A stretch of DNA of 64,000 nt from a virus. Taxonomy: Duplodnaviria; Heunggongvirae; Uroviricota; Caudoviricetes. The notes beneath the pieces are model-generated. The model was not told the origin of the DNA, ran no database searches, and worked only from the letters and a program-made list of their open reading frames with translations. The stretch is from IMG/VR virus record IMGVR_UViG_3300008108_000037, positions 68,002 through 132,001 of that record; one strand, given 5' to 3'. Made by a program: the position numbers and the translations under genes. Every line of letters starts with the position of its first letter. Within the stretch, counting starts at the first letter, position 1. Below are positions 24,468 to 52,494 of the stretch, piece by piece.

Positions 24468-24468
24468 G

Positions 24469-25122
24469 TTAAATTATTTTGGCGCTAGGCGCTATTTTAT
24501 TGAATTCGTTGATCGAATGGCTAGAGTATTCTGGATCTTCAAATATAATTCCATGATTTCCGTTCCCACTTTTATCGAATGTTTTAAATTTTGAATTTCT
24601 TTCAAAATCAAAAAACGAGTACAGCTTTTTTGATTTCTCGTCAAAGGAATCGACGATTTCATCGAAAACTGCAATTTTATAAATATCCCCTTTGAACCAG
24701 CATTCATAAGATCCACTGTATGGATTTATAGATCCTATAAAAATATTCTTGTCTGAATAAGATTCAATTGGACCGGTTTCTTTTTCACCTTTTAAAATTC
24801 CATCGATGTATATTTTAACAGAATCTGAAACTGTCACCATGACCTCCATTCTTTTATGTATATCATCAACAGGTATCCAAATATCGTTATATTGATAGGG
24901 TTTAGTGTACCAAGAGAATTTAACACCATTTGGTTTCTGTAAAAATATTCCCATATGGTATCCTATCCTTCCTACAATCAACGACTCATCCTCTGCAAAC
25001 TCAGAGAGTTGAAAATCCCCATAAAGAGAAAAATTCCCCTCCAGATTTTCAAAATTCTTTGTGTTCGTATTATTTTTAGAATTGTTTGGGATGTAATATG
25101 CTTTCTTTTCGAATCTCATCAA
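24469..25122 (-). CDS. LamG/concanavalin-A-like lectin-fold protein
   Basis: IYIDGILKGEK...NIFIGS...WFKGDIYKIAVFDEI matches the LamG F-x-G-x-I-D-E-hydrophobic signature. Confidence 0.4.
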   Translation of the reverse strand: MMRFEKKAYYIPNNSKNNTNTKNFENLEGNFSLYGDFQLSEFAEDESLIVGRIGYHMGIFLQKPNGVKFSWYTKPYQYNDIWIPVDDIHKRMEVMVTVSDSVKIYIDGILKGEKETGPIESYSDKNIFIGSINPYSGSYECWFKGDIYKIAVFDEIVDSFDEKSKKLYSFFDFERNSKFKTFDKSGNGNHGIIFEDPEYSSHSINEFNKIAPSAKII

Positions 25123-26501
25123 ATTATTTTTTTATAAAATTCCTCAAATTCTGGAAAAACCTTCAAAAAATTGGTGCCTCTTCTTTTATCGTGATTGTCT
25201 ACAAAAATTCGGAAATCCCTCCTGTTCTGTAATAAGGTCTCTTCAGGTTCTTCCGTTACCATCCAATCATGAATTCTATTTAACTTATTGATTTCGATGT
25301 CGGTATATCCAAATCCATCAAGACCAACTCTTATTTGTTCGTAGAAGTCCATTAGCTGAGCTTGCTCTTTTACTACTGCAGACCATTCCTTATCTAATAT
25401 TTTCACTGTCTGGTGTGGAGGCCACCTTAAATAGGACGAGTCTAACATAATAGAGGAGCCATAGTATCTGTGAGGGTTGTGATATTCTTCCTTAAGCTTT
25501 ACCACATTTTCTATTAACTTTTCATAATTAGGAACGGAAAGTGCGTTATATGTGGACATTATTATTACGGTCAGAGGCTCAATTTCTTTCAATAGAAAAT
25601 TAACTCTATCCCACCATTGGTTGAAGACCAAACCATGTCTAATGTATTCAGCTTGTTCTCCCCAGGTATCTGCACTGGTAAATAGTATCACCTCGTTTAC
25701 CCTGTTCTCGTCTATCATTCTTTTTAATTTTTCTACCATTAGATTAAAAAGCTTATCTGGTGCTCCTAAATTCGTATTGAGAGAAAAATTTAAATTTCTG
25801 TTTGGGTTTTTTTCATCCAAGATATAATCAAAAACCTTAAAAGTGTCTTTAGACAGAAGAGGTTCCCCTCCCGTTATTCTAAAAGTATGAAGATCTCTGT
25901 ATAAATCAGGCCACCATTTCCAGAAAGCCTCAACGTATGGGTTCTCCTGATTATGCGGTCTTGGGATCATGTTCAGATCCTTCAAATATTCTAAATTGTT
26001 AAATCTAAAGCTGGTAGGATATGGTCCATGCTGCTCTATTTCTTGAACCCATTGGGAAGAGAACGACGGTCCACAATACGAGCATTTAAAATTACAGTGA
26101 TTACTAAAAGCTACCTCAACATACTTAGGATTGTAATTTTCTTTCCACCCTAAATCTTTTATTTCATTAAAATATGGGGCAGACCAGGGTTCAGAAGATT
26201 TATAAATTCTATCGGAAAATGCATTTGATGTATCTTCTATATTCCAGCAATAATCGCATTCGTCTGGTCTTTTACCGTGAAGCATTTTTCTTCTCTGCTG
26301 CTTTTTATAAACTGTATTATGTAGAGCAGATGGGTTTTTTTCTAACTCTGATAGTGGGATATGATGCGTGCCTGGATGGTGACACGAATGTGTTTGTCCC
26401 ATTTGTAAATGAAGTGTTACTTGAGTCCATTTTGCTAAACAAAAGCCACATCCAACATCGTTTAATTTATTTCTAGTTTTGTCGAAAAATTCGTTTAGCA
26501 T
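25119..26501 (-). CDS. radical SAM enzyme with N-terminal Cys/His-rich extension (long subfamily)
   Basis: GCGFCLAKWTQVTLHLQMGQTHSCHHPGTHHIPL, ECDYCWNIED, then FSNHCNFKCSYC (CX3CX2C), FRITGGEPLL; paralog of 22908-24467. Confidence 0.6.
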   Translation of the reverse strand: MLNEFFDKTRNKLNDVGCGFCLAKWTQVTLHLQMGQTHSCHHPGTHHIPLSELEKNPSALHNTVYKKQQRRKMLHGKRPDECDYCWNIEDTSNAFSDRIYKSSEPWSAPYFNEIKDLGWKENYNPKYVEVAFSNHCNFKCSYCGPSFSSQWVQEIEQHGPYPTSFRFNNLEYLKDLNMIPRPHNQENPYVEAFWKWWPDLYRDLHTFRITGGEPLLSKDTFKVFDYILDEKNPNRNLNFSLNTNLGAPDKLFNLMVEKLKRMIDENRVNEVILFTSADTWGEQAEYIRHGLVFNQWWDRVNFLLKEIEPLTVIIMSTYNALSVPNYEKLIENVVKLKEEYHNPHRYYGSSIMLDSSYLRWPPHQTVKILDKEWSAVVKEQAQLMDFYEQIRVGLDGFGYTDIEINKLNRIHDWMVTEEPEETLLQNRRDFRIFVDNHDKRRGTNFLKVFPEFEEFYKKII

Positions 26502-27808
26502 TATAGTAATCTTTTTTTAATTATCGGATTGAGACTCTCCAAACAAATTAGATCGTTTGGTAAATTTCTGTGTTTTGAATTATTTGCAATCATTAAATCG
26601 TGTCTTTCTTTATGATTTACCCATGGATTATCTCCAAATAATCTTATATGTTCATTTATACTCGATATAAATATCTTCGATTCAAAGTCGTCGTTATCTA
26701 AAATAAACTCTGGAAGATGATACGAATTAACAAACGGAACAATGTAATCATAATTTCTCCTGAGAATTGATTCAAAGCTATTTTTTATATTCGCTCCGTC
26801 AAGTAATATACATCCATTCTTGACGTAGAATATTATATTCTTTTTACTATCCTTTAAAATATTTAAAATTATTTGGGATTCTAAATCTTCCGATGATGTG
26901 TCCAAGAAAACATATTCATATTCAAAATGATCAGTAATCATGCTTCTGAGCGTCTCCTTGCTGTTTTTTTCGATCACAAAATATCTAAGATTTTTAAATT
27001 TATTTTTATAAAAGTTTAGCGTAGTTTCCAAAACCCCTCCATAATTTTCTTCAGCTCCATCTACCGAAATAAAAGCACAGACCTCAGTAGAGATGCACGG
27101 TATGTCTTCATATGGTGGATAATGATTGTCTCTAAAATTTACTAGCTGTTTATAAAGAGAATTTGATATGGTTGAAGGAAATTCGCAGTTTGATAACGCA
27201 AGGCCAAAAACAGCTCCCTCTCCTCTTAAATCATCATCAGCCTCCTTCGCTACCTTTTTTCTAAGCATCGAATAAAATTCATAGGTTTCAAACAATTTGT
27301 CTATCTTTTCTTCGTCAATACCCTCGAAATTAAAATACATTAAATCTTCCCATGGAGTAACTGTATTTCTAAATTCAACATTATTTTTTATCAGCTCATC
27401 TTTAAATTTTCCAAGTTTTGGATTCGTTTCTAATAAGGCTTTGAAATGTATGCTTGTAAATCTGTTGTATGAAAATCCTGGATTAAAATTCTTAGAAATA
27501 ATATCATTTATGAATTCTTCAGAATTTATCAATATCAGATCAGAATCCATATAAAGTATTTTATTATACCCCCTTTTTCTTACCTGGTTAATGAATATAA
27601 ATTTGCTATGAAAATCAAAGGTTGTGGAAAAATCGTGCTTTATTGTTTCAACCCCTTCCATGTCTTTGAATTCTGACACATTATCAGTGTAAACAAATAT
27701 TTTAAAAGATCCACTATCAGTGAAATTCTTTATTAAAAATTTGCAGCAGGTATAATAATACTCAGTATTAGAAGCAATTGTCGCTATTGCTATTTTATTT
27801 TCCATCAT
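26501..27808 (-). CDS. putative GT-A fold glycosyltransferase (DxD)
   Basis: N-terminal IAIATIASNTEYY and ILYMDSDLILIN (DxD) resemble GT8/GT77-type nucleotide-diphospho-sugar transferases; weak. Confidence 0.3.
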   Translation of the reverse strand: MMENKIAIATIASNTEYYYTCCKFLIKNFTDSGSFKIFVYTDNVSEFKDMEGVETIKHDFSTTFDFHSKFIFINQVRKRGYNKILYMDSDLILINSEEFINDIISKNFNPGFSYNRFTSIHFKALLETNPKLGKFKDELIKNNVEFRNTVTPWEDLMYFNFEGIDEEKIDKLFETYEFYSMLRKKVAKEADDDLRGEGAVFGLALSNCEFPSTISNSLYKQLVNFRDNHYPPYEDIPCISTEVCAFISVDGAEENYGGVLETTLNFYKNKFKNLRYFVIEKNSKETLRSMITDHFEYEYVFLDTSSEDLESQIILNILKDSKKNIIFYVKNGCILLDGANIKNSFESILRRNYDYIVPFVNSYHLPEFILDNDDFESKIFISSINEHIRLFGDNPWVNHKERHDLMIANNSKHRNLPNDLICLESLNPIIKKRLL

Positions 27809-29251
27809 TTATGCTTTGCAATTAATCAGAAGGGTATTGTTGAATACCTCTTTAGTAGAGACTAACTCGTACTTCATACTGTTGAATCCCTCACTTTTAT
27901 AGTTTATACATTTCCTTTGCATTTCAGTTACGAACCTTTTTTCATTTCTTGCTGTTGTTTCCCCCTTTGCCCACTTATTATTTACTAGCCCTTCGTCAAT
28001 GTGTGGTAAACACTCGAAAGATCCTTCTCTCCTATAAGGAATTGGCATGTCGCTAACCTCTATGGAATCTTCAACGATTTCTAAATTATAAGCCTTAGCT
28101 TTAATTCCACTCATTACGTCTTCGATTTCTCCATTTTCTATCAAATCAAATTTAAAATGCAGAACTGGCTTATGTTTTAAATCGTGAAATTTAGTAACAT
28201 CTCCTGGAATTTTTACTGCCTTATCAAAAATCATTAATTCTGCAATTTCACCTCTAAAAAATAATGGATTTTCCTCGTCGCCGTTATATCCCATGATAGA
28301 TTTTTCTTTATCCCTATACTGAAATAAATCATTATTTATTATTGTAGATTTATTTTCTTTGATTCCTTTTTCGTTAGATCTTGCTAGTTCGTCATTTAGA
28401 AAAAAATTAAAGTGACCACTTGAAGAATCATAAGATGTTGTTACCCAGGACCAAACACCATCATCCCTCTTGATCCAATTATAGATCTGGGATGATGAAA
28501 AATCTGAAATCATGCTAGTAACAGCTCTGGAGTTGTTAAAAGATATGCAGTACGGACTATATGATTGCTTTCGGAAAACCGGAAATTCTATGAATTTTTT
28601 GTCATCCGTTCCTATTAGCCAATCTTTATATTTTTCAGGTTGTTGTTCTGCTTTAAATAGAGCACATACCGTATGATCTGATCCCAGTATTTTGTTTATG
28701 GATTTTATCCATGGGATTTCAACATATGAGTTGTTTCCATTAAATCTTGAAAATTTTCTTTTTTTATATTTTTTATAAATCCTTTTTTCAACATATCCTT
28801 CGAAATAACATCGATAAAAAAGGTCGTCATCTTCCATACCCCAATCCCAATAATCATTAGAATATCCGTTAGTTTTTATAACTTGATCCTTAGTAAATAG
28901 AATTACCCCACCGAAGTATTGTTCATAATTTAGTTTGAAATCGTACTTCGAAAGTTTTGTTGCTATATGAATTGGATATTTTTCCGGATATGAATAGTCA
29001 CAATCATCGGAGAATGGCACCATATCAACGTCATGCCATGCAATATAATCACATCCATCATCGAAGGCAAACTTGGCTGCTATGTTTTTCATTAGTCCCC
29101 TATTAAACAGCTTATTATCCACCTGATGGGCCACATAAAATTTATGATCTATTCCACGATTTTTTAGATACTCCCCCAGGTCTTCAGTTAGCTTCTGTAA
29201 GTGATCGAATCTATTTCTGTAAGGTATGCAAATTCCCAGTTTATGACTCAT
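27809..29251 (-). CDS. GT7-family (beta-1,4-galactosyltransferase-like) glycosyltransferase fused to C-terminal LamG-like domain
   Basis: FNRGLMKNIAA...DYIAWHDVDMVP...YFGGVILFTKDQVIKTNGYSNDYWDWGMEDDDLFYRC is the GT7 core (FNRG, DVD, WGWGxEDDD); C-terminal FFRGEIAELMIFDKAV LamG signature. Confidence 0.55.
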   Translation of the reverse strand: MSHKLGICIPYRNRFDHLQKLTEDLGEYLKNRGIDHKFYVAHQVDNKLFNRGLMKNIAAKFAFDDGCDYIAWHDVDMVPFSDDCDYSYPEKYPIHIATKLSKYDFKLNYEQYFGGVILFTKDQVIKTNGYSNDYWDWGMEDDDLFYRCYFEGYVEKRIYKKYKKRKFSRFNGNNSYVEIPWIKSINKILGSDHTVCALFKAEQQPEKYKDWLIGTDDKKFIEFPVFRKQSYSPYCISFNNSRAVTSMISDFSSSQIYNWIKRDDGVWSWVTTSYDSSSGHFNFFLNDELARSNEKGIKENKSTIINNDLFQYRDKEKSIMGYNGDEENPLFFRGEIAELMIFDKAVKIPGDVTKFHDLKHKPVLHFKFDLIENGEIEDVMSGIKAKAYNLEIVEDSIEVSDMPIPYRREGSFECLPHIDEGLVNNKWAKGETTARNEKRFVTEMQRKCINYKSEGFNSMKYELVSTKEVFNNTLLINCKA

Positions 29252-30654
29252 ATTCCTACGTTAATTTCTGTTATATTTCCCTCTCTTTTTCTTCCGTGAT
29301 CTGTGTACTTTAGATCCGATAATCCGTCTCCAAATAAAAGATTGCTGTTATTTCTTACCTCGTTATAGAATCTTAATTGATTCCATCTAGTTGCTTTATC
29401 CTTCCATCTATTTTCGAAGAAACCATTTTGCTCATGTTTCATGGATTTAAAGATAGAATCCCTTCTGATCGGAAGGTCTATTTTTTTAAACCAAGGACCT
29501 TCCATATCAACAATTTCACATTTGAAAATACTAGCATCGTTTCCGTTTCCTGAAAGATCTACTAACTTATAATTTTCTATGTGCTCTGCATCATAGTGAC
29601 AAAGAATGGATCCGGATTTTTTATATTCCGAAAAGTCGTTTGTTGCTGAAACAGATTTAACTTCATTTTCACTTAAAATTCCTTCTAAGACTACCAAAGA
29701 ATCTATGTACCCCTTGAAAAAATTAGGATCTCCATTTCTTTTAGGATTTCCTGCACCGATAAAGAAATACTTTTCGTCTGAATAATCCTTTAATTCTCCC
29801 TCCCAATTTGTTTTTCCTATATGTTCTCCGTCTTGATAGAAATTTATTTCTCTCAACGATTGATTTAATGTGATACAAATATTTGTTTGATAATTAGTAG
29901 TTATTTCTGTGTTTATGTATGATGCTTTTTCTTCGGAGTTGAATGTAACAAAATTGTATCTCTTGAATGAATTATAGGAAATTGCAGTGTCATACCCCGG
30001 AATGCTAAAAACCGTATAAACATCAAGATCCTTCGTTGAATCATAAACCAATTCATCGGGGAAAAAAGATGCAAATAATGTTAGATCCTTGTCTATGCAA
30101 AAATTATTTTTTGCTCTCACAAAAGAATCCTGTCCGTTAAATTTTAGTGATTTATGGAAATTTCTTGTTTTTTTGATGTAATAAGGCTCTGTGCCTATGC
30201 TCTTGTTTTTGCATCTTAGGAAAAGGTCATCATCTTCAAATCCCCATCCCCAATACTTATTTGAATATCCGTTTATCTTTTTGAAATCTTTAATCGGAAA
30301 CATAGTGACCCCGCCGAAGTATTCGTCGAATGGCTTTGATCTTTCCCCCGAGTCCTCGTCCTCTATTAGAGTTGCAAGATGAACTGGATGATCACAGTAA
30401 GAATAATCAACATCCAATGGCAGCAAATCAACATCATGAAAAACCACATAATCACATCTTAAGTTTCTGGCACACTTAAATCCTATATTTAATAGCATCC
30501 CTCGATTAAATTGCTTACCGTCGTCTTGATTTACGATGATAATTTCATGTGGTATTTTTTCCTCGTTTAGATATTTTACTATCTCCTTGAGAAAAAAATA
30601 AAGATGTTCCCCTCTGTGGCGGAAAGGAACTATGACTCCTAGTTTTTTATCCAT
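29248..30654 (-). CDS. GT7-family (beta4GalT-like) glycosyltransferase fused to C-terminal LamG-like domain
   Basis: FNRGMLLNIGF...DYVVFHDVDLLP...YFGGVTMFPIKDFKKINGYSNKYWGWGFEDDDLFLRC; C-terminal FFKGYIDSLVVLEGILSENEV LamG signature; paralog of 27809-29251. Confidence 0.55.
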   Translation of the reverse strand: MDKKLGVIVPFRHRGEHLYFFLKEIVKYLNEEKIPHEIIIVNQDDGKQFNRGMLLNIGFKCARNLRCDYVVFHDVDLLPLDVDYSYCDHPVHLATLIEDEDSGERSKPFDEYFGGVTMFPIKDFKKINGYSNKYWGWGFEDDDLFLRCKNKSIGTEPYYIKKTRNFHKSLKFNGQDSFVRAKNNFCIDKDLTLFASFFPDELVYDSTKDLDVYTVFSIPGYDTAISYNSFKRYNFVTFNSEEKASYINTEITTNYQTNICITLNQSLREINFYQDGEHIGKTNWEGELKDYSDEKYFFIGAGNPKRNGDPNFFKGYIDSLVVLEGILSENEVKSVSATNDFSEYKKSGSILCHYDAEHIENYKLVDLSGNGNDASIFKCEIVDMEGPWFKKIDLPIRRDSIFKSMKHEQNGFFENRWKDKATRWNQLRFYNEVRNNSNLLFGDGLSDLKYTDHGRKREGNITEINVGI

Positions 30655-30856
30655 CTATTGTAGGGTCCTTTGGTTTTATCGATTTATGAAATTCCGTCAG
30701 ATAGTACTGAATCCTGTTGCTCCAATCATCCTTATCAATATCTTCTATCCAAGCTGAAATGTCATCGAGGGAATCTGAGATTCTTTCGAGTGCTTTTACT
30801 TTTCTAAGTTCCAATTCTAAAAATTGATCCTCGTTTGATTTTTTAGCTGTTGCCAT
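30647..30856 (-). CDS. small hypothetical protein
   Basis: 69-aa acidic ORF in the array; no motif. Confidence 0.2.
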   Translation of the reverse strand: MATAKKSNEDQFLELELRKVKALERISDSLDDISAWIEDIDKDDWSNRIQYYLTEFHKSIKPKDPTIDG

Positions 30857-30857
30857 A

Positions 30858-31706
30858 TTAGATTGATATTATTTTTTTAATTAAAGAGCTCCATTCTTTA
30901 TAATCTTCAAAATAGACGCATCCATATTCAAACATAAAATCAGAATTACTGAGGTCTATCCTAGATTTATTTCTCTTTATAGCATCATACATCACTTTAT
31001 ATTCGTCAGAATATGAATAATCCTGATTAATATCTGCGACATTTTTGATCCTTTCTAAGCATGTTGAATCCCATTTAAAATGGTGGACCTGGACGGAATA
31101 TTTTTCTACTGGTGCAATTAGTGGATGGCTCCATCCTTGCCACCTCCAGGTAGTCTGCCCATTTATTTTTGCATAATGCTGCCCAGAAGTTATTTCAATT
31201 CCTCCTTTAACCAAGCAGATTTTGTTAGGGCATGCGTTACTCATGGGGTATCTGAAAAATCCGGCTATGGGAAACTGGTCAAAGATTGGTACATCTTCAA
31301 GTATCTTACAGAACTCCCCGTTGTTTCCTATCCTGTCTAGAAATCCTCCCCTAATTAATTCCCACCCCTGACTTTCACAATCACTAACCATATAATTAGG
31401 TGACTCAGGATAAACGTGAAATTCGTCTATATCAGCAATCATGTACCAGTTGCTTCTTGATTTTTTTATTTGTTCATTATATAGATCAGTAACCCTGTTC
31501 CAATCAAAGATCCTATCATAAACAGTTTTAACTATTTTTACTTTTTCCTTACCTCGGATAGATCTTCTTACCTCTCTCTTTAAATCTGGATGCAGATCAG
31601 ATTCATAGACCACAAAATTTATTTCATCTACCATGTTATAATAATGATTGATGAAGTGTGGTATTAGAGGAACCCCATGACCTATTATAGATATTAATTT
31701 TATCAA
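30858..31706 (-). CDS. hypothetical protein, possible glycosyltransferase (DxD)
   Basis: WYMIADIDEF DxD-like block; otherwise unassigned. Confidence 0.25.
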   Translation of the reverse strand: MIKLISIIGHGVPLIPHFINHYYNMVDEINFVVYESDLHPDLKREVRRSIRGKEKVKIVKTVYDRIFDWNRVTDLYNEQIKKSRSNWYMIADIDEFHVYPESPNYMVSDCESQGWELIRGGFLDRIGNNGEFCKILEDVPIFDQFPIAGFFRYPMSNACPNKICLVKGGIEITSGQHYAKINGQTTWRWQGWSHPLIAPVEKYSVQVHHFKWDSTCLERIKNVADINQDYSYSDEYKVMYDAIKRNKSRIDLSNSDFMFEYGCVYFEDYKEWSSLIKKIISI

Positions 31707-32539: not shown

Positions 32540-33328
32540 ATGGAAAAGAAGCAAAAAATATTGACTATAGGGGACATTCACGGGAGGGATTACTGGAAAT
32601 TCATTACCCATGGTAGTAGTTACGAATTTGAGCAGTGGGTAACCATGGTGAATGCTGGGGCTAATCCCATGGACGATTTGTTTAAAGAGGATTATCCTTA
32701 TTTTTCCGCAGACAAGATAGTTTTTGTTGGTGATTACGTTGACAGTTTCACAATTAGTAATGTTGAGATCAAGAAAAATCTTGAGGATATCATTTTCTTT
32801 AAAAAGACACTACCAAATAAGGTAGTGCTTCTCTGGGGAAATCACGATGTTCAGTATTTTATTCCCAATCAAATCTGTAGCGGATATCGTCCAGAGGCAA
32901 GATGGGATCTACAGATTCTTTTTGAGAGCAATAAAGATCTTTTCCAGATGGCATATCACGAGGGTGATTATCTTTGGACTCATGCTGGTTTATTAAAGCC
33001 AGTATTAAGTGATCTTTTAAAACATCATCCAGATCTAAAGGAACTTGGTAATGAGGCAGATATTTTAAACGAGGCATTTAAAATGGAACTCCCCCAAATT
33101 TTTCAGGTGGACGGTGCCAGTGGGGGATGGAGCATGTACGGGGGACCGCTCTGGGTTAGGCCAAATCAGCTTCAAGAATATGGAGTAGACCTGCATCAGA
33201 TAGTAGGACACACCCCGGTTTCAGAATTGAAGAATTTAAAAAATAAAAGAGACTATAACATCTGGCTCACAGATTATTTAGAATATAGCTTGGGCGAAGG
33301 ACTTGATCCCTTAACTTTAGAAATATGA
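32540..33328 (+). CDS. calcineurin-like metallophosphoesterase (Ser/Thr phosphatase / ApaH-like)
   Basis: LTIGDIHGR, FVGDYVDS, LLWGNHDV = GDxHG / GDxxDRG / GNHE-type phosphoesterase motifs. Confidence 0.6.
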   Translation: MEKKQKILTIGDIHGRDYWKFITHGSSYEFEQWVTMVNAGANPMDDLFKEDYPYFSADKIVFVGDYVDSFTISNVEIKKNLEDIIFFKKTLPNKVVLLWGNHDVQYFIPNQICSGYRPEARWDLQILFESNKDLFQMAYHEGDYLWTHAGLLKPVLSDLLKHHPDLKELGNEADILNEAFKMELPQIFQVDGASGGWSMYGGPLWVRPNQLQEYGVDLHQIVGHTPVSELKNLKNKRDYNIWLTDYLEYSLGEGLDPLTLEI

Positions 33329-33609
33329 TATCGAAAAAAACGAAAGAAAGGGCAAAACAAATTATGAATGGAACATATGTACCTCCAGAGCCAGAAAAGA
33401 TAGCGGTTACTTTTGAGGTCACTGAAAAACAATATAAAAAATACAAAAGGTGGAGAAATGCTAAGAAGAAAAAAGAAGGGGAGCTTTACGTCGGAGCAAT
33501 CGGAGGAGCATACACTTTTTGTTTTACTGCAACAGGAATAGGTGAAATAGTAACTGTGAAAGCAGCAGACGGAGATGAGTTAGATTTAACAGATTATAAT
33601 ACTTGGTAA
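33325..33609 (+). CDS. hypothetical protein
   Basis: 94-aa ORF with 4-nt overlap to upstream gene. Confidence 0.3.
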   Translation: MISKKTKERAKQIMNGTYVPPEPEKIAVTFEVTEKQYKKYKRWRNAKKKKEGELYVGAIGGAYTFCFTATGIGEIVTVKAADGDELDLTDYNTW

Positions 33610-33610
33610 T

Positions 33611-34216
33611 ATGAAAGTGATATTTTTAGACAATGACGGAGTAATTTGCCTTTCCAATAATTGGGGATCACGACACAAGAAGCAAAAAAAATGGGGTGGT
33701 AGGAAACTATCTATGACTACTCGTGAAATGCCCCTTGAATATAGATTTGATAATTTTGATAAAAAAGCAATTAAAATCTTAAATGAAATTCTAGAACAAA
33801 CTGGAGCTGAAATTGTAGTGAGCTCCGATTGGAGATTGTATGCGGATTTAGAGGAGTTGGGGAAATACTACACATCCCAGGGTATTATCAAAAATCCTAT
33901 AGGAGTAACTGAAATATTTCACCATAAAAATTGGGTAGAAGAAGGTAGAATACCCCCAGATTTTGATTGGTACAGAATCGAAGATAGGGAGCAAGAAAGG
34001 CACTTCGAAATTCTGGAATGGCTAAAGAAGAATCCGGAGGTTACTCAATGGGTAGCTGTGGATGATTTACACATGGGGATTCACGTCGAAGCAAGTTCTT
34101 ATGGAGCATTCGATAGAGATTGGGGATTGAAAAATTTTGTATGGACTCCCAGAGCCTGGGAAGGAATTAAACAGTCAGGAATCAAAAAAAAGATTTTAAA
34201 ATTTTTAAACAACTAA
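33611..34216 (+). CDS. HAD-like hydrolase
   Basis: VIFLDNDGVIC = DxDG(T/V) HAD motif I. Confidence 0.4.
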   Translation: MKVIFLDNDGVICLSNNWGSRHKKQKKWGGRKLSMTTREMPLEYRFDNFDKKAIKILNEILEQTGAEIVVSSDWRLYADLEELGKYYTSQGIIKNPIGVTEIFHHKNWVEEGRIPPDFDWYRIEDREQERHFEILEWLKKNPEVTQWVAVDDLHMGIHVEASSYGAFDRDWGLKNFVWTPRAWEGIKQSGIKKKILKFLNN

Positions 34217-35687: not shown

Positions 35688-36758
35688 ATGAGTATCGCCT
35701 TAACTTATGATGACATCCAATTAGTTCCTGCTTACTCTGAAGTTGTTTCCAGGAGTACAATCAATCTTAACACTTTGGTGACACGAAGATACGGATTAAT
35801 TAGACCCCTGGTGGCTTCTCCGATGGATACGGTGTGTGAACTTGACATGGCCTATAGAATTTTTCTATTCGGAGGAGTTGGATGTATCCATCGTTTCATG
35901 CCTATTGAAAATCAATCCCGGATGATTGAGATGCTAAGATATAAAATATATGGAGACGGATTTGGTGGTCCTTTCGAGGATTGGGGAATCATGTATGACG
36001 ATTGGCATTCTGAGATCAAGCAGATACCTATTATGGCAGCTGTTGGAGCTAATGGCGATTATTTGGATAGAGCAAAAAGTCTAATAAAGAATGGAGCAAA
36101 TATCATCCTCATAGACGTAGCTCATGGACATCATAAAAATGTCAAAGATGCAATCGAATCTATAAAATCTATTAGTCCCGAAATTGATGTGATAGCAGGA
36201 AATATTGCAACACCAGAAGCTGCTCAAGATTTAGAATCGTGGGGAGCGGACGGATTAAGAGTTGGTATTGGAGGTGGATCCCTTTGTACAACTAGAGTTA
36301 AAACTGGATTTGGTATTCCTAACGTAACTTGTATAGAAGAGATATCAAAAATTGCCACAGTTCCTGTTATGGCAGATGGAGGTATTCGAACTAGTGGAGA
36401 TATTGCTAAGGCTTTAGCACTTGGGGCAAGCAGTGTGATGCTAGGATCATTGCTTGCAGGGACAGAAGAATCCCCTGGACAGATAGTTGAAAAATCAACG
36501 GGTCTATATAAAAGATACAGGGGTGCAGCATCATTAGAAACCAAAACGGTTCACGGACAAGCACAGAGAAATGTAGAGGGGGAATCTACAATTATTCCAT
36601 ATAAAGGAGGAGCTAAATTTGTTTTAGAGGGATTACTTGACGGGGTTAAATCTGCTCTTTCATATGCAGGTGCGGTTTGTTTGAAAACATATCACCCAAA
36701 ATATGTTCAAATTACCAACGCTGGTATGAACGAAGCAAAGCCGCATCTGATAAATTAA
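35688..36758 (+). CDS. guaC: GMP reductase (IMPDH/GMPR family, no CBS insert)
   Basis: LTYDDIQLVPAYS N-terminus, catalytic loop GIGGGSLCTTRVKTG, MADGGIRTSGDIAKALALGASSVMLGSLLAG; 356 aa without CBS pair fits GuaC. Confidence 0.65.
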   Translation: MSIALTYDDIQLVPAYSEVVSRSTINLNTLVTRRYGLIRPLVASPMDTVCELDMAYRIFLFGGVGCIHRFMPIENQSRMIEMLRYKIYGDGFGGPFEDWGIMYDDWHSEIKQIPIMAAVGANGDYLDRAKSLIKNGANIILIDVAHGHHKNVKDAIESIKSISPEIDVIAGNIATPEAAQDLESWGADGLRVGIGGGSLCTTRVKTGFGIPNVTCIEEISKIATVPVMADGGIRTSGDIAKALALGASSVMLGSLLAGTEESPGQIVEKSTGLYKRYRGAASLETKTVHGQAQRNVEGESTIIPYKGGAKFVLEGLLDGVKSALSYAGAVCLKTYHPKYVQITNAGMNEAKPHLIN

Positions 36759-36808
36759 TTCGGTTCGCACGAAACAAACTTCTTAAAAGATATATAAATT
36801 TCATCATT

Positions 36809-37191
36809 GGGGGTGTATTTGGCACTTGACAGACATTGGTAGTTCTTTGAGATGATGCAGGCCGAGTTAGTATTGGAAACTCGTTAATCACCTATGCAAA
36901 CAATAAACGACGTAGAATTATCTACAATGACCTTCGAAGACGCTATGTCTTTCGTTGGTGCTGATTACGCAATAGCTGCCTAATCCCTCCCGCACACATC
37001 GTGGGGCTTAAAATAGAATGTGAACCCAGGTGGAATATGACTGAACCCGAAATCGAGTCATCTGAATTTGGTAGTTTAATCAGCCAACTATAAACTACAT
37101 ATTTTGTTTGTAAAGAAAAACAAGCTAAGCCTGTGAATGAGTTTCTTTTAACAGATGGACTGGACACCGGTTCGATTCCGGTCACCTCCAC
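36809..37191 (+). ncRNA. ssrA: tmRNA (ssrA); CCA not encoded
   Basis: 5' GGGGGTG pairs with 3' CACCTCC with a G3-U70 wobble (alanine identity); 3' tRNA-like T-arm ACCGGTTCGATTCCGGT; internal ORF ending GCT GAT TAC GCA ATA GCT GCC TAA (...ADYAIAA-stop), resembling canonical tags ending YALAA. Confidence 0.6.
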
Positions 37192-37206
37192 AAAAATTAA
37201 TTTAAT

Positions 37207-37839
37207 ATGCAAGACAGAAAAGAATTCCCGTCGTTATTGAAATCGATGGGATTGACCAACAAGGGAGTTGAGGTTGGATCTTTTAAGGGTGACTTTGCTA
37301 AAGAAATTCTTGAGCAGTGGCCAGGAATATTATATTTAGTGGATCCTTGGCGAGAAATGAAGGAAGAGGAGTATGACGATATTTCAAACATGAAACACCA
37401 GGGAAAAGTTTATGAAAAAACTTTTGAAAACCTAACAGGATTTGAAGAGCGAGCATTAATGATGAGAATGACATCAGATCAGGCTGCTGAATTATTTCCC
37501 GACAGGTCTTTGGATTTTGTTTATATTGACGCAAACCACACTTATGAGCATGTGAAAAATGATATCATGCTTTGGTATCCCAAAGTTAAAATAGGAGGAA
37601 TTCTTGCAGGACATGATTTTTTAAAACTAGAATGCTTCAACAAAGAATCTTACGCTAATGGACAAAAGAACCACCCGATTTGGATGTGGTTAGATGGGGA
37701 TTACAATAATAGATTCTATGCTGGAATGTTTGGAGTGAATCCAGCAGTGGAAGAATTTTTGGAATATAATGGTTACGATCTTCATGTCACTAATGAGTTC
37801 ACAGGAACTTGGTGGATAGTCAAAAAAAGCAATCTATGA
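37207..37839 (+). CDS. class I SAM-dependent methyltransferase (Methyltransf_24/TylF-like)
   Basis: GVEVGSFKGDFA and LDFVYIDANHTYEHVKNDIMLW...GGILAGHDF; same family as 31703-32431. Confidence 0.5.
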   Translation: MQDRKEFPSLLKSMGLTNKGVEVGSFKGDFAKEILEQWPGILYLVDPWREMKEEEYDDISNMKHQGKVYEKTFENLTGFEERALMMRMTSDQAAELFPDRSLDFVYIDANHTYEHVKNDIMLWYPKVKIGGILAGHDFLKLECFNKESYANGQKNHPIWMWLDGDYNNRFYAGMFGVNPAVEEFLEYNGYDLHVTNEFTGTWWIVKKSNL

Positions 37840-38777
37840 AAACCGCCTTTCTAAATCTCAGAAATCACAGGAAGGCTTATCTTATTTGTTCAGTTGGTCA
37901 AAGGTATATTGATATGGTTGAAGAACTGGTCCGCCAGTTAGACAAATATTCATCATTTCCTGTTTTTTTATACTATTCGGATGGCCAGGTTAATTTTGAT
38001 TTTCCCAATCTAATAAAACAGAAGTTTGAAATTGATTCCTCGATAAAGTATGAAATCGAAGGAATAAATCCAGAGAGTGTTAAAACACTAATGCTTACCA
38101 CAGTTAAACCCAGGGCTTGCAAGCTTTTATTGGAAAACTATGAGGTAGATGAATTTGTCTTTCTTGATTCCGATGTTTTGGTTACACCTGCTATAGATTC
38201 TGTTTTTCTAAACTATGGCGATTCTATTTCTAACTTTCCTATTTTTCTAAGATATTCATGGGACTGGGTAACCACCAACGGAAAGCAGCATGTTGCAGAT
38301 ATTATCTTAGAGAGAATTGGAATTTCTAGGGCTCCAACAGTAACCTCACTTTGTACCTGTCTTTTTATTGCAAACAGAAATTGTAAATCTTTCTTATCTG
38401 ATTGGGAAAAATATTGTTCAGATCCTGAAATAATTAAGTTTGCTTTAAGTCCGGAGGGATACGGAGGATTTACCGATGAATCTGTTGCTAACGCAGTCGC
38501 TTGGCTTTATAGATGTAATATTTCCATTCCAACTAATCTTTGTTGGGCTTGGAAATATGAACCAGTGAAATATGTCTTTGATTTTTATGACGGGATAATT
38601 TCAGATCTAGAAAGACACACTTCACAGCCGACCCATTATAAATTGAGTGGAGAAAATGAAGTACCTTTTGGTCTTTCTGTTATTCCCGAAAGAAAAAATA
38701 ATTTTTTAGGATTTCATTTCATCAAAGATCTAGAGACAATTAAAAAAGTTGCAGAAGAAATAGAAAAAAGGTTCTAA
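37809..38777 (+). CDS. hypothetical protein, possible GT-A glycosyltransferase
   Basis: FVFLDSDVLV DxD-like block; weak. Confidence 0.25.
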   Translation: MVDSQKKQSMKTAFLNLRNHRKAYLICSVGQRYIDMVEELVRQLDKYSSFPVFLYYSDGQVNFDFPNLIKQKFEIDSSIKYEIEGINPESVKTLMLTTVKPRACKLLLENYEVDEFVFLDSDVLVTPAIDSVFLNYGDSISNFPIFLRYSWDWVTTNGKQHVADIILERIGISRAPTVTSLCTCLFIANRNCKSFLSDWEKYCSDPEIIKFALSPEGYGGFTDESVANAVAWLYRCNISIPTNLCWAWKYEPVKYVFDFYDGIISDLERHTSQPTHYKLSGENEVPFGLSVIPERKNNFLGFHFIKDLETIKKVAEEIEKRF

Positions 38778-38854
38778 TTTCTGAAAATTTTTCTTTTTAT
38801 CTTCTATAATCTAAAACAAAAGGAATATATAAAAATTCCTAGATCTTTAAACAT

Positions 38855-38929
38855 TGCGGGGTAGAGCAGTGGTAGCTCGCTGGGCTCATAACCCAGAAGT
38901 CGTGGGTTCGAATCCCACCCCCGCTACCA
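38855..38929 (+). tRNA. tRNA-fMet (CAT), initiator-type, CCA encoded
   Basis: Near-colinear with E. coli tRNA-fMet: TGCGGGG TA GAGCAGTGGTAGCTC GCTGGG CTCATAA CCCAG...GTGGGTTCGAATCCCAC CCCCGCT ACCA; three G-C pairs closing the anticodon stem and a mismatched 1:72 pair (U:U). Confidence 0.75.
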
Positions 38930-46153: not shown

Positions 46154-49100
46154 ATGGCAAATTATAGAATTTTAGGACAAGAAACTGTTAACAATTCGGT
46201 AAGTCCGGGACCTACCCTTGTAACACTTTATACGGTTCCTCAAAATGCTTCCATTCTAATCAATGCAATAACCGGATATAATGAGGGATTTAATAGTGGA
46301 TATCTTACCGTTGCAGTAAAAAGGAACGGGGACGAGGACTATTCTCCAGATCAAATTGTTATAAATACTCCCTTAGCACCCGGTGCTTCAATACAAATTT
46401 CTCCTCAATTTTCTCCTGTTGGTTTAACTGCCGGCGACGTAATACTTTTAGTTGGTAATTATTCTCCTGCCCCTACAACAGTAGCGGTAACCTTATTCGG
46501 TGAAGACGGGGCTTCTAGCGGTGGATCCGGCAATGCAGGAACATCCGGAACTTCAGGAAACAGTGGGGGCTCAAGTACTTCAGGAAGTAATGGTACTAGC
46601 GGGACTTCGGGAACTAATGGATCTACAGGAACTGGTGGTACTAGTGGTACCTCTGGAATGAACGGATCTATCGGAACTAATGGTACGAGTGGAACCTCAG
46701 GTGAAACCTTCGGAACTAGTGGAACGTCAGGGGCAGCTGGTGCTCCTGGAGCAGCGGGATCTTCTGGAACATCTGGGGTTTCCGGAGCATCTGGTTCTTC
46801 TGGAACCTCTGGGGTTTCCGGAGCATCCGGTTCTTCCGGAACATCGGGAAATTCAGGTTCTTCTGGAACATCTGGGATTTCCGGGGCATCTGGTTCTTCC
46901 GGAACATCAGGAAATTCGGGATCCTCTGGTACATCAGGAAATTCGGGAACCTCTGGTACTTCGGGAGAATCTGGTTCTGCTGGTACATCCGGATCATCTG
47001 GAACATCAGGAAACTCCGGGTCATCCGGTACATCAGGAAACTCCGGGTCCTCCGGTACATCAGGAAATTCGGGAACCTCTGGTACTTCTGGGGAATCTGG
47101 CTCTTCTGGAACATCAGGATTCTCTGGGTCCTCCGGAACATCAGGAAACTCCGGGTCATCCGGTACATCAGGATCCTCTGGAGAACCCGGTTCTGCCGGA
47201 ACATCGGGATCCTCAGGTACATCTGGTACATCAGGAAACTCCGGGTCATCCGGTACATCAGGGTCATCCGGTACATCAGGGTCCTCTGGTACATCTGGTG
47301 CTGATGGTACATCCGGTTCTTCCGGAACCTCGGGAAACCCTGGATCATCAGGGACCTCTGGAACATCAGGAAACTCTGGATCATCGGGGACCTCCGGATC
47401 CGCTGGAACTTCTGGTTTAAGCGGAATATCTGCAGGACAGATTTATTATTTTAACCAATCTCAGTCTTCTGACATTTCTCCATATAAAGTCCTTAGTGTT
47501 TACCCATCAGGAGCTGCTGAACAAACAGTTCCTATGGTATTAACGGGCGGGCAATTGAATGTTCTGGTAAGTCAATTCCTGACCCCCGAATTGGGATTTG
47601 CTGTAATTCCACCAGGCACTCAGAGATTTCATCTGCATTTTTTAAAACAACAGTTTAATGATGACATAGATGGCTATGTTACCATAGAACTTGCAAATTC
47701 GTCAGGTGTAGGATATGGCACTATTATTCAATCAAACAAAGCTTTAATTGGATGGGTGAGTGTTTCTCAATCTTATGAGCTGTTGGTTGATATTGTTTTA
47801 CCTTCAGTATACATAAACACCACAGACAGAATGATTGTCAAGGTTTACGTTGACAATAATGAAGCAACCGTCAGAAATTTAACTTGGTACACAGAGGGGG
47901 CTCAAAACTATTCATATGTAATCACATCGGTTGGAGCAATTGTAGCAAGCTCTGGAACGTCAGGGAGTTCTGGAACTAGTGGATCAAGCGGAACTTCGGG
48001 ATCCGGGGGTTCATCAGGAACTAGCGGATCTAGTGGATCGGAGGGAACTTCAGGTAGCTCTGGTACTTCCGGCAGTTCTGGAACCTCTGGAGAAGATGGA
48101 ACTTCAGGTAGCTCTGGTACTTCCGGCAGTTCTGGAACCTCTGGAGAAGATGGAACTTCGGGATCTGGGGGTTCATCAGGAACTAGCGGATCTAGTGGAT
48201 CGGAGGGAACTTCAGGTAGCTCTGGTACTTCGGGAACCTCTGGAGAAGATGGAACTTCAGGTAGCTCTGGTACTTCGGGAACCTCTGGAGAAGATGGAAC
48301 TAGTGGATCTTCAGGTACATCAGGAACCTCGGGGGTGTGCGAGTGTCCACACAGCTACACTATCACGGCTCCAACGGATATCACGTGTTACTCTTTAACA
48401 AATGACGGAGATCCCGACAACGTAAATAGTACAAACTATCTCGATTGTAACGGGAATCCTGCGGTCATTTACAATAAAATTTTTCTCACACCAGCTACTT
48501 ATTTCTGTGCTCAGACCGGATCTGTTACAACTGATTCGGGGCTCACTGTAATATCAGTACCTGATGATCCTGGATCTTGCGACGGATGTTGCGATGGATA
48601 TGCTTATTCTTATACCGACGAAACAGATACTATCATAAGTGGAATCATATATGACGGAGAATCTCTAACTTTCTGTGCGATCCCAGGATCTGTAGTTTGG
48701 TCCCATACAATAGTAGACAATGGGCATTGTGTAGGAAGTTCAGGTACTTCCGGCAGTTCTGGTTCGAATGGTACGTCAGGTAGCTCTGGTACTTCCGGCA
48801 GTTCTGGTTCGAATGGTACGTCAGGTAGCTCTGGTACTTCCGGCAGTTCTGGATCTTCTGGGACATCAGGAACTGATGGTTCCTCCGGTAGTACAGGTAC
48901 TTCTGGTTCTTCCGGCAGTTCTGGATCTTCTGGGACATCAGGAACTGATGGTTCCTCCGGTAGTACAGGTACTTCTGGATCCTCAGGGTCATCTGGAACT
49001 TCCGGAACTGATGGATCTTCAGGTACATCAGGTAACTCTGGTTCTTCTGGAACCTCAGGATCAGCAGGTACATCAGGAAATGAGGGTCCCCCTGGATCTT

Positions 49101-52165: not shown

Positions 52166-52252
52166 GGAGGCTTGGCAGAGCGGTCGAATGCGGCAGTCTT
52201 GAAAACTGCTTTACGGGTAACTGTAACCGGGGTTCGAATCCCTGAGCCTCCG
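52166..52252 (+). tRNA. tRNA-Ser (TGA), type II
   Basis: Acceptor GGAGGCT/AGCCTCC, anticodon loop CTTGAAA, long variable arm, T-loop GGTTCGAATCC. Confidence 0.8.
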
Positions 52253-52257
52253 CAATT

Positions 52258-52320
52258 GCCTCCTTAGCTCAGCTGGTAGAGCGACGCACTTGTAATGCGT
52301 AGGTCATTGGTTCGATCCCG
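52258..52320 (+). tRNA. tRNA-Thr (TGT)
   Basis: GCCTCCT TA GCTCAGCTGGTAGAGC G ACGCA CTTGTAA TGCGT ... AGGAGGC. Confidence 0.8.
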
Positions 52321-52401
52321 ATAGGAGGCTCGATACTAACGTAAAACTTGTACACTAACATAATCCTTGTTAGCGTACAAAAAGTTCGTTAGCAGTCAAA
52401 T

Positions 52402-52488: not shown

Positions 52489-52494
52489 CACATG

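What the first reader, a model, noticed from the sequence alone, without database searches (positions are those of the whole stretch)
36809..37191. Phage-encoded tmRNA
A ~383-nt element has a 7-bp acceptor with G3-U70, a tRNA-like T-arm and 3' end (CCA not encoded), and an internal reading frame ending ...ADYAIAA-stop that resembles degradation tags ending YALAA. It lies between guaC and a methyltransferase on the plus strand. Spurious ORFs 36943-37212 and 37197-37391 overlap it on the minus strand. tmRNAs occur in some very large phages and indicate manipulation of host ribosome rescue.
Basis: partly seen in the sequence, partly recalled or inferred. Interest (0 to 1): 0.65.

Follow-up and report, generated by a model that had tools for sequence, protein, structure and literature searches.

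The report
Phage-encoded tmRNA with long tag
The flagged element is a real, intact transfer-messenger RNA gene carried by an uncultured large freshwater phage; such genes are already known from big phages, so this is a well-supported but fairly ordinary new example whose only unusual trait is a long, acidic tag peptide.

Summary
Confirmed. ARAGORN calls a tmRNA at exactly 36809-37191(+), and Rfam RF00023 matches it end to end at 79.5 bits (threshold 47). It has a 7-bp acceptor stem with G3:U, a T-arm, discriminator A with no encoded CCA, pseudoknot PK1, and resume codon GAC with the U(-5)A(-4) context. The 24-codon tag reads DVELSTMTFEDAMSFVGADYAIAA-stop. Five homologues from metagenome contigs (80-99% identical, RF00023 79-92 bits) show compensatory changes in the acceptor, T-arm, PK1 and both stems of PK2. 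They also keep the tag frame across an in-frame 6-nt indel. Of the 16 substitutions in the 96%-identical variant L087 (15 in L086), none breaks a proposed pair. The surrounding DNA is phage-like: tail fibre, endolysin-type genes, 21 tRNAs, and an identical locus on many lake-metagenome contigs. No SmpB gene or CCA-adding enzyme was found among the ORFs scanned in the window. The 5' half, resume context and tag end resemble Chitinophagaceae ssrA genes, whose tag is GNTQYAMAA. This suggests capture from a Bacteroidota host followed by a roughly 15-codon tag expansion. Phage tmRNAs have been reported since 2006, including in huge phages, so this is a new member of a known kind. Interest is low to moderate.

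The parts
36789..36797 (+). GATATATAA motif 12 nt upstream of the mature 5' end; candidate -10-like promoter element
   Evidence: Invariant in all six family members even where the flanks diverge. Three other copies in the window (10548-, 53158+, 58737+; positions lie outside the ORFs >=120 aa listed). The count alone is not significant, and the sigma-70 consensus scan found no promoter here.
36809..37191 (+). tmRNA (ssrA) gene, one-piece, 382 nt to the discriminator plus one C
   Evidence: ARAGORN; RF00023 79.5 bits against a gathering score of 47, full-length match.
36809..36815 (+). Acceptor stem 5' strand, GGGGGUG (G3 pairs with U379)
   Evidence: Pairs with 37183-37189. G5:C changes to A:U in L072, a compensatory change.
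36830..36862 (+). Helix 2, 5' strand (pairs with 37129-37162)
   Evidence: 21 proposed pairs, 96-100% paired across the six sequences. Almost invariant, so it gives no covariation evidence.
36863..36897 (+). Pseudoknot PK1 (S1 55-59/71-75; S2 62-68/84-89 in RNA numbering)
   Evidence: C55:G75 changes to A:U in L072. U63:G88 changes to U:A in L086, L087 and L085. 100% of cells paired.
36909..36983 (+). Tag reading frame: resume codon GAC (36909-36911), 24 codons DVELSTMTFEDAMSFVGADYAIAA, stop TAA (36981-36983)
   Evidence: ARAGORN. U(-5)A(-4) lie upstream at 36904-36905. The frame, stop position and the VELS..T residues are kept in L072 across a 6-nt in-frame indel, with 4 synonymous codon changes.
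36988..37022 (+). Pseudoknot PK2 (S1 180-185/193-198; S2 187-191/210-214)
   Evidence: 4 of 6 pairs in S1 and 4 of 5 pairs in S2 change on both sides across the family. 100% paired.
37037..37071 (+). Candidate pseudoknot PK3 (S1 229-234/248-253; S2 239-243/259-263)
   Evidence: Proposed by inspection. 82-100% paired in the family alignment, which is unreliable here for L085 and L072. No substitutions in the close variants.
37072..37123 (+). Two hairpins in the PK4 position (264-270/283-289 and 296-301/310-315)
   Evidence: All 5 substitutions that L086/L087 carry in this segment fall in the two loops and none in the stems. No pseudoknot partner could be found. The segment is replaced or expanded in L085 and L072.
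37129..37162 (+). Helix 2, 3' strand
37166..37182 (+). T-arm (stem 358-362/370-374, loop UUCGAUU)
   Evidence: 3 of 5 pairs have compensatory changes in L072 and L085.
37183..37190 (+). Acceptor stem 3' strand CACCUCC plus discriminator A; followed by CAA, so CCA is not encoded
   Evidence: Sequence. L085 encodes CCA; L072 has CAU.
35688..36758 (+). Upstream neighbour: IMPDH/GMP-reductase-family protein with no CBS insert
   Evidence: PF00478, E 1.6e-97. Below all NCBIfam equivalog cutoffs.
37207..37839 (+). Downstream neighbour: Methyltransf_24 methyltransferase, starting 16 nt after the tmRNA with no terminator between them
   Evidence: Absent in L086/L087, where tRNA-Met follows the tmRNA within about 7 nt.
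32540..34216 (+). Metallophos and HAD_SAK_2 (RNA-repair-type HAD) genes upstream; possibly functionally linked to the tmRNA

Best explanation
This is a functional one-piece tmRNA gene carried by a large uncultured freshwater phage. The proposed mechanism has several steps. The RNA is transcribed from a phage promoter, possibly the conserved GATATATAA element, or is cut out of a longer transcript by the host tRNA-processing enzymes, and CCA is then added. Host alanyl-tRNA synthetase charges it with alanine through the G3:U pair. With SmpB and EF-Tu it enters the empty A site of ribosomes stalled on broken or stop-less mRNAs. Translation then switches to the internal frame at GAC (36909) and appends (A)DVELSTMTFEDAMSFVGADYAIAA. 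The stop codon releases the ribosome. The tag's C-terminus, YAIAA, resembles the likely host-clade tag (GNTQYAMAA) and would mark the product for host proteases. The benefit to the phage would be extra ribosome-rescue capacity during infection, when mRNA breakdown or host ribotoxins strand ribosomes. What is shown: the gene, its structure, purifying selection on structure and reading frame, and the phage context. What is inferred: charging, SmpB use, tagging, proteolysis and the benefit to the phage.
For: Detection by two independent methods. Five homologues score 79-92 bits on RF00023. In the family alignment 95.7% of pair cells are paired, against 35-43% when partners are slid, and 17 pairs change on both sides, against 5.5 in shuffles. 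The compensatory changes lie in the acceptor, T-arm, PK1 and both PK2 stems. Of the 16 substitutions in L087 (15 in L086), 14 (13) fall at unpaired positions and 2 convert G:U to A:U; none breaks a pair, although 41% of positions are paired. The tag frame, resume codon, stop position and acidic character survive a 6-nt in-frame indel. Four synonymous codon changes preserve V, L, T and I. The resume context U(-5)A(-4) matches the E. coli U85/A86 rule (established knowledge). The upstream motif is invariant. Phage context. The locus is 100% identical on five of the six contigs examined, out of at least 23 that carry the neighbouring gene. There is no duplicated 3' end, so this is not an attachment-site remnant. 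Similarity of the 5' half, resume region and tag end to Chitinophagaceae ssrA is. Translation starts lacking Shine-Dalgarno motifs fit a Bacteroidota host. Phage tmRNAs are documented in PMC1475703, PMC4131195, PMC7162821 and PMC12484599.
Against: No expression, charging or tagging data exist. No SmpB gene was found among the roughly 56 window ORFs scanned, so the RNA must rely on host SmpB or on a gene elsewhere in the genome. The gene is dispensable in the lineage: relatives with the same IMPDH-methyltransferase synteny have only a 239-nt gap and no tmRNA. The L072 tag ends in ILA rather than the canonical AA, so a degradation signal is not assured. PK3 and PK4 are weakly supported. The three tag substitutions among close variants are all non-synonymous. 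The host is unknown, and the Bacteroidota link rests on a set of bacterial loci pre-selected for sharing the 3' 29-mer.
Confidence: 0.8

Rival explanations
1. The RNA is a real tmRNA, but its main role is not ordinary degradation tagging. The 15-residue acidic extension might recruit a different adaptor or fate for tagged chains. Alternatively, the RNA might compete with host tmRNA for SmpB and stalled ribosomes, serving as counter-defence or as a sensor of host physiology. It may act together with the adjacent RNA-repair-type genes.
For: The tag is 24-26 residues with 5-6 acidic and no basic residues, against 9 residues for the most similar bacterial tags. V-E-L-S..T is preserved through synonymous codon changes. 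The L072 tag ends in ILA. Metallophos and HAD_SAK_2 genes lie beside the tmRNA locus in both lineages. TLD-only phage tmRNAs, proposed to titrate SmpB, exist in mycobacteriophage DS6A (PMC4131195), and a 139-nt example turned up here in L001/L002.
Against: The complete messenger-like domain, resume context and the host-like C-terminus YA(I/V)AA are retained in four of the five variants. Bacterial tags of 25-33 residues also occur, for example in Omnitrophota, so length alone is not special. Nothing directly shows an alternative fate.
Confidence: 0.12
2. The gene is a recently captured host ssrA riding as a neutral passenger or decaying pseudogene, or the contig is bacterial or an integrated element with ssrA as its attachment site.
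For: Sequence resemblance to Chitinophagaceae ssrA. Patchy presence among related phages. No capsid or terminase gene inside the window.
Against: Outside the last ~85 nt there is no blastn-level similarity to any of the 63 bacterial loci. The gene is maintained, with compensatory changes and an intact frame, in phage lineages whose neighbouring methyltransferase is only 80% identical. Zero pair-breaking substitutions. A conserved upstream motif. No repeat of the 3' end and no integrase nearby. The gene sits mid-contig among phage-type genes.
Confidence: 0.05
3. A chance tRNA-like match with no real gene behind it.
For: None beyond the generally low posterior probabilities in the central part of the Rfam alignment.
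Against: E 3e-29, two independent detectors, and conserved homologues with covariation.
Confidence: 0.01

Closest known systems
Bacterial one-piece tmRNA (SsrA; Rfam RF00023), especially Bacteroidota/Chitinophagaceae ssrA
   Same: Full architecture: tRNA-like domain with G3:U, helix 2, PK1, resume codon with U(-5)A(-4), a tag ending YA(I)AA plus stop, and PK2. The 5' half, the resume context AAACAATAAAY|GRC and the tag end GCN-ATN-GCT-GCC-TAA-TC are close to Flavisolibacter/Chitinophagaceae genes.
   Different: Sits in a phage genome. The tag is 24 residues and strongly acidic, against 9 (GNTQYAMAA). The resume codon encodes Asp, not Gly or Ala. The PK3/PK4 region is unrelated in sequence, and PK4 is probably two hairpins. 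CCA is not encoded.
tmRNAs of large phages (mycobacteriophage cluster C such as Bxz1, Bacillus phage G, 'huge phages')
   Same: A complete ssrA carried together with a large tRNA set by a big phage genome (PMC1475703, PMC4131195, PMC7162821). Phage G has a 13-residue tag, AKLNITNNELQVA (PMC12484599).
   Different: No detectable sequence similarity to any tmRNA in 50,697 GenBank phage records, and no family member found in IMG/VR with three sequence patterns taken from this tmRNA. It is an independent acquisition in an undescribed freshwater phage lineage. SmpB, which some huge phages carry, was not found in this window.
TLD-only phage tmRNA (mycobacteriophage DS6A)
   Same: A phage-borne derivative of ssrA. 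The 139-nt RNAs in L001/L002 share the identical T-arm and acceptor 3' strand with the window tmRNA.
   Different: The window RNA keeps the whole messenger-like domain and the pseudoknots. It is a full tmRNA, not a TLD-only decoy.

Membership tests
tmRNA (RF00023) | Covariance-model score above the curated threshold over the full model | tested here: met
   79.5 bits against a gathering score of 47, model positions 1-374. ARAGORN agrees.
tmRNA (RF00023) | tRNA-like domain: 7-bp acceptor stem with G3:U70, T-arm with a GUUCGAnUC-type loop, discriminator A | tested here: met
   Sequence. Compensatory changes at 1 acceptor pair and 3 T-arm pairs.
tmRNA (RF00023) | 3'-terminal CCA | tested here: not met
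   The gene reads A-CAA after the stem, so CCA must be added after transcription. 20 of the 21 tRNAs in the window also lack it. L085 encodes CCA. An encoded CCA is not required for family membership.
tmRNA (RF00023) | Long helix 2 joining the tRNA-like domain to the pseudoknot ring | tested here: met
   21 pairs, 96-100% paired in six sequences, but nearly invariant, so there is no covariation evidence.
tmRNA (RF00023) | PK1 immediately upstream of the resume codon | tested here: met
   One compensatory and one G:U-to-A:U change; 100% paired. The resume codon lies 11 nt downstream.
tmRNA (RF00023) | Resume codon and in-frame tag ending in a hydrophobic/Ala-rich C-terminus plus a stop codon | tested here: met
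   GAC...GCA ATA GCT GCC TAA. The frame is kept across an in-frame indel in L072.
tmRNA (RF00023) | Pseudoknots PK2-PK4 downstream of the tag | tested here: inconclusive
   PK2 is strongly supported: 8 of 11 pairs are compensatory. PK3 is plausible. The PK4 position holds two hairpins supported only by loop-restricted substitutions.
tmRNA (RF00023) | Alanylation, SmpB/EF-Tu binding and trans-translation activity | not testable with these tools
   No SmpB gene among the roughly 56 window ORFs scanned. The rest of the genome was not available.
Phage-encoded (as opposed to cellular) ssrA | Located within a phage genome, with virion, lysis and replication genes on the same molecule and no cellular core genes | tested here: met
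   Tail fibre (collagen plus Peptidase_S74), endolysin-type CHAP and glucosaminidase ORFs, 21 tRNAs and PHROG hits. A holin sits in the relative L072. RecA-like and RNaseH-like genes lie beyond the window, and the longest contig class is 0.2-1 Mb. Capsid, portal and terminase genes were not seen within the window.
ssrA attachment-site remnant of an integrated element | Duplicated 3' segment of ssrA flanking an integrase-bearing island | tested here: not met
   There is only one copy of the 3' 17-mer in the window, even allowing 3 mismatches. No integrase is adjacent.

The most novel reading that the evidence does not exclude
The tag's 15-residue acidic N-terminal extension (VELS..T.., conserved at the peptide level in two diverged phage lineages) may be a phage-specific signal. 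It could redirect or protect products of trans-translation. Alternatively, the tmRNA could form a counter-defence 'translation-rescue island' against host ribotoxins, together with the neighbouring Metallophos/HAD_SAK_2 RNA-repair-type genes and the tRNA set.
Probability: 0.12. Interest if true: 0.6.

Novelty: new member of a known kind. Interest (0 to 1): 0.27.

Why it matters
It adds a well-validated, covariation-supported tmRNA family from an abundant, uncultured freshwater phage lineage that is missing from GenBank phage records and IMG/VR. Its resemblance to Chitinophagaceae ssrA gives a usable clue to the host, probably Bacteroidota. It also shows how a captured ssrA can evolve in a phage: the tag expands from 9 to 24-26 residues, the PK3/PK4 region turns over, and the gene is gained and lost between close relatives. 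The concept of phage-encoded tmRNA is already established, so the finding confirms and extends it rather than changing it.

Tried and rejected
- Megablast and blastn of the locus against 50,697 phage records found no match.
- IMG/VR scans with the 3' 29-mer found only two unrelated contigs, each with a 139-nt mini-tmRNA.
- A 17-mer from helix 2 gave 5 chance hits with no tmRNA.
- One IMG/VR scan used a spacer one base too long and was uninformative. The corrected pattern also found nothing.
- Peptide patterns from the methyltransferase found nothing in IMG/VR.
- The 3' 29-mer occurs in 63 bacterial species from many phyla, so it does not identify the host on its own. Blastn of the whole RNA against those loci matched only the 3' end.
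- Minimum-free-energy folding was uninformative (z = -1.0), as expected for a pseudoknotted RNA.
- The sigma-70 consensus scan found no plus-strand promoter or terminator at the gene.
- Methyltransferase homologues at 59-65% identity (L073, L074, L080-L083) carry no tmRNA.
- The attachment-site idea was rejected because the 3' end is not repeated.
- No H-type partner could be found for a PK4.
- The hairpin expected after the stop codon (helix 5) is not conserved between lineages.

Full report
**Observation.**
ARAGORN finds one tmRNA in the window, at exactly the reported coordinates, 36809-37191(+). Its tag peptide is DVELSTMTFEDAMSFVGADYAIAA*. It also finds 21 tRNA genes. The Rfam tmRNA model RF00023 matches 36809-37193(+) from end to end (model positions 1-374) at 79.5 bits, against a gathering score of 47, with E 3e-29.

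- The acceptor stem GGGGGUG pairs with CACCUCC, giving G3:U.
- The T-arm is ACCGG/UUCGAUU/CCGGU.
- The discriminator is A at 37190. It is followed by CAA, so CCA is not encoded.
- The internal frame ends ...GAT TAC GCA ATA GCT GCC TAA, with the stop at 36981-36983.
- The resume codon called by ARAGORN, GAC at 36909, lies 11 nt after PK1. It is preceded by U at -5 and A at -4. These are the positions equivalent to U85/A86, which set the frame in E. coli tmRNA (established knowledge).

The neighbours are an IMPDH/GMP-reductase-family gene at 35688-36758 and a Methyltransf_24 gene at 37207-37839. Calling the first one 'guaC' goes further than the data allow. It falls below all NCBIfam equivalog cutoffs, and its best hit is an IMP dehydrogenase model.

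The minus-strand ORF 36943-37212 overlaps the RNA and is not conserved in relatives, so it is spurious. ORF 37197-37391(-) lies just beyond the RNA, over the methyltransferase gene.

**Relatives and test of the structure.**
The same locus is 100% identical on five of six metagenome contigs examined and differs by one base on the sixth. At least 23 contigs from JGI and ENA samples carry the neighbouring gene, and the longest contig class is 0.2-1 Mb. Diverged homologues came from two routes:
- Through a methyltransferase homologue (80% identity): L072:433-825, RF00023 92.3 bits, tag DNTVELSAYTADALLAELEAEATILA*.
- Through a metagenome pattern scan: L084 (99% identical, resume codon GGC); L086 and L087 (96%); and L085 (5' and 3' parts 88-96% identical, PK3/PK4 region replaced and longer, CCA encoded). 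These score 79-87 bits on RF00023.

ARAGORN misses the gene in L086 and L087 and miscalls the tag in L085. The alignment shows that the same frame is present, ending ...ADYAVAA.

I proposed a structure of 79 pairs and counted it on the six-sequence alignment:
- 95.7% of pair cells are standard pairs, against 35-43% when the 3' partners are slid by 1-3 columns.
- 17 pairs change on both sides, against a mean of 5.5 in shuffles (0 of 500 shuffles reach the observed value).
- Compensatory changes fall in the acceptor stem (G5:C to A:U), the T-arm (3 of 5 pairs), PK1 stem 1 (C55:G75 to A:U), PK2 stem 1 (4 of 6 pairs) and PK2 stem 2 (4 of 5 pairs).

PK2 keeps the same geometry (6 bp, 1 nt, 5 bp, 1 nt, then an ~11-nt loop) with three unrelated sequences. 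Helix 2 is always paired but nearly invariant, so it is uninformative.

An independent check uses the 16 substitutions that separate the window from L087. Fourteen lie at unpaired positions. Two convert G:U to A:U. None breaks a pair, although 41% of positions are paired in the model. This includes the two hairpins at the PK4 position, where all five changes are in loops.

PK3 (229-234/248-253 with 239-243/259-263) is plausible but weakly tested. I could not find a pseudoknot partner for PK4. The helix-5 hairpin is not conserved.

**The tag.**
Between the two lineages the tag-coding segment is the least conserved part at the nucleotide level. Even so, several features are kept:
- the resume codon
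- the reading frame across a 6-nt indel
- the stop position directly before PK2
- an entirely acidic charge pattern (5-6 Asp/Glu, no basic residues)

Four codons change synonymously (V, L by two substitutions, T, I), preserving V-E-L-S..T and the penultimate Ile. This argues that the frame is translated and that part of the peptide sequence matters. A tag of 24-26 residues is long, but within the range seen in bacteria (8-33 residues among the 61 bacterial genes).

**Phage context and likely host.**
The window has about 32% G+C and two large strand blocks. Its contents include:
- a 1567-residue collagen-repeat tail fibre with a Peptidase_S74 chaperone domain
- CHAP and glucosaminidase endolysin-type proteins
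- a non-specific endonuclease
- a DUF2201/VWA protein of a phage family
- many glycosyltransferase, radical-SAM, 2OG-oxygenase and SET-domain ORFs
- no cellular core genes

Just outside the window lie RecA-like, RNaseH-like, NT5C, thioredoxin and TROVE-domain genes. The relative L072 has a phage holin. The best protein matches in GenBank phages are to uncultured 460-480-kb phages, at only 35-43% identity. There is no nucleotide match in GenBank phages, and three patterns taken from this tmRNA found no family member in IMG/VR. No capsid or terminase gene lies in the window, so phage origin is very likely rather than formally proven.

No SmpB gene or CCA-adding enzyme was found among the ORFs scanned. 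Twenty of the 21 tRNAs also lack an encoded CCA.

Three observations point to a Bacteroidota host:
- Among 61 bacterial tmRNAs from at least eight phyla that share the 3' 29-mer, the 20 best matches to the phage's 5' 100 nt are all Chitinophagaceae or other Bacteroidota. The 5' region was not used for selecting those loci.
- The alignment shows a near-identical resume context (AAACAATAAAT|GGC against AAACAATAAAC|GAC) and tag end (TAT GCC ATG GCT GCC TAA TC against TAC GCA ATA GCT GCC TAA TC).
- Only 8 of 50 ORFs have any Shine-Dalgarno-like 4-mer upstream, as is typical of Bacteroidota.

I therefore infer, with moderate confidence, that the gene was captured from a Bacteroidota ssrA and that its tag grew from about 9 to 24-26 codons.

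**Expression signals.**
The sigma-70 scan finds no consensus promoter or terminator on the plus strand. However, a GATATATAA element 12 nt upstream of the mature 5' end is invariant in all six sequences, even where the flanks diverge. It recurs at three other sites in the window (10548-, 53158+, 58737+) that lie outside the ORFs of 120 aa or more listed. The methyltransferase start codon follows 16 nt after the RNA. In L086 and L087 a tRNA-Met follows within about 7 nt instead. Release of the RNA by the tRNA-processing machinery is therefore likely (inference).

**Mechanism and rivals.**
The best explanation (about 0.8) is ordinary trans-translation with a phage-supplied tmRNA. Host AlaRS charges the RNA via G3:U. 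Host SmpB, or an unseen phage copy, delivers it with EF-Tu. Translation resumes at GAC, the acidic tag ending YAIAA is added, and the ribosome is released at UAA. The tagged product is probably proteolysed. The benefit would be to keep ribosomes available while mRNAs are being destroyed or attacked.

The rivals are:
- A modified role, such as altered fate of tagged chains, competition with the host system, or counter-defence together with the adjacent Metallophos/HAD_SAK_2 RNA-repair-type genes (about 0.12).
- A passenger gene, pseudogene or attachment-site remnant (about 0.05). This is contradicted by the covariation, the intact frame, the conserved upstream motif and the absence of a 3'-end repeat.
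- A chance match (about 0.01).

Against essentiality, relatives with the same IMPDH-methyltransferase synteny lack the gene. It is therefore an accessory gene.

**Comparison with what is known, and verdict.**
Phage tmRNAs have been reported several times:
- three in mycobacteriophages in 2006 (PMC1475703)
- eight cluster-C-type mycobacteriophages plus Bacillus phage G and a TLD-only form in DS6A (PMC4131195)
- tmRNA and SmpB in huge phages (PMC7162821)
- phage G's tag AKLNITNNELQVA (PMC12484599)

The element meets every testable defining feature of RF00023 except an encoded CCA, which is not required. PK3 and PK4 remain unresolved. It is a new member of a known kind, from a phage lineage not represented in reference collections. 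The interest score should be lower than the 0.65 proposed, because the phenomenon is established. The distinctive points (the long acidic tag, the Bacteroidota-like origin, and the linkage to RNA-repair genes) are modest and partly inferential.

Noticed in passing
L001:4715-4853(-) and L002:4091-4229(-) (IMG/VR UViG_3300033388_004813 and UViG_3300033145_001073): A 139-nt 'mini-tmRNA': 5' and 3' halves of a tRNA-like domain joined by about 85 nt, with CCA encoded. RF00023 scores 59.3 bits (gathering score 47), but ARAGORN calls no tag. Its T-arm and acceptor 3' strand are identical to the window tmRNA. It resembles the TLD-only ssrA of mycobacteriophage DS6A, which has been proposed to titrate SmpB (PMC4131195).
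   Followed up: partly
window 32540-34216 (+): Metallophos phosphoesterase and HAD_SAK_2 ('Swiss Army Knife' RNA-repair HAD) genes lie just upstream of the tmRNA. In a relative, HAD_SAK_2 sits directly upstream of a ~600-nt gene-free gap before the methyltransferase, where L072 carries its tmRNA. A TROVE/Ro60-like ORF lies about 15 kb beyond the window start. This may be an RNA-repair and translation-rescue module.
   Followed up: partly
window 38855-38929 and 52166-61151 (+): 21 tRNA genes covering 16 amino acids, interspersed with ORFs. 20 of the 21 lack an encoded CCA. No CCA-adding enzyme was found among the ORFs scanned.
   Followed up: partly
window 36789-36797, 53158-53166, 58737-58745 (+) and 10548-10556 (-): The motif GATATATAA is invariant upstream of the tmRNA in six phage variants. 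Its three other copies in the window lie outside the listed ORFs of 120 aa or more. It may be a -10-like phage promoter element. The count alone is not significant (4 observed against 1.95 expected).
   Followed up: partly
window-wide ORF starts: Only 8 of 50 ORFs have any Shine-Dalgarno-like 4-mer in the 20 nt upstream, and the start regions are A/T-rich. This pattern is typical of Bacteroidota and their phages and fits the Chitinophagaceae-like tmRNA.
   Followed up: partly
L086:2898-3361, L087:648-1111, compared with window 37192-38854: The methyltransferase and the 322-residue ORF between the tmRNA and tRNA-Met are absent in 96%-identical variants, where tRNA-Met follows the tmRNA within about 7 nt. 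More distant relatives (L080-L082) keep the IMPDH-methyltransferase synteny but lack the tmRNA. This locus gains and loses genes readily.
   Followed up: partly
window 46154-50857 (+): A 1567-residue collagen-repeat tail-fibre ORF with a C-terminal Peptidase_S74 chaperone domain. Its G+C is 45-49% in a genome of about 32%, and several long spurious ORFs overlap it in other frames.
   Followed up: no
window 647-8448 (-) and 8613-10487 (-): A run of about 14 small same-strand ORFs (144-272 residues), including 2OG-Fe(II) oxygenase and SET-domain proteins. It is followed by a 624-residue protein with a C-terminal Hint/intein-like (AXH/PT-HINT) domain.
   Followed up: no
window 12000-31700 (-): A dense block of radical-SAM/SPASM enzymes, galactosyltransferase-like glycosyltransferases with Laminin_G_3 lectin domains, sugar-nucleotide enzymes and an APS-kinase-like P-loop protein. 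It looks like a large glycan or peptide-modification cluster in a phage.
   Followed up: no
L085, L086, L087: ARAGORN fails to report the tmRNA in L086 and L087, despite 96% identity to the window gene and RF00023 scores of 87 bits. In L085 it reports a wrong tag (AEVVTTSL). ARAGORN-only surveys would therefore under-count this family.
   Followed up: yes
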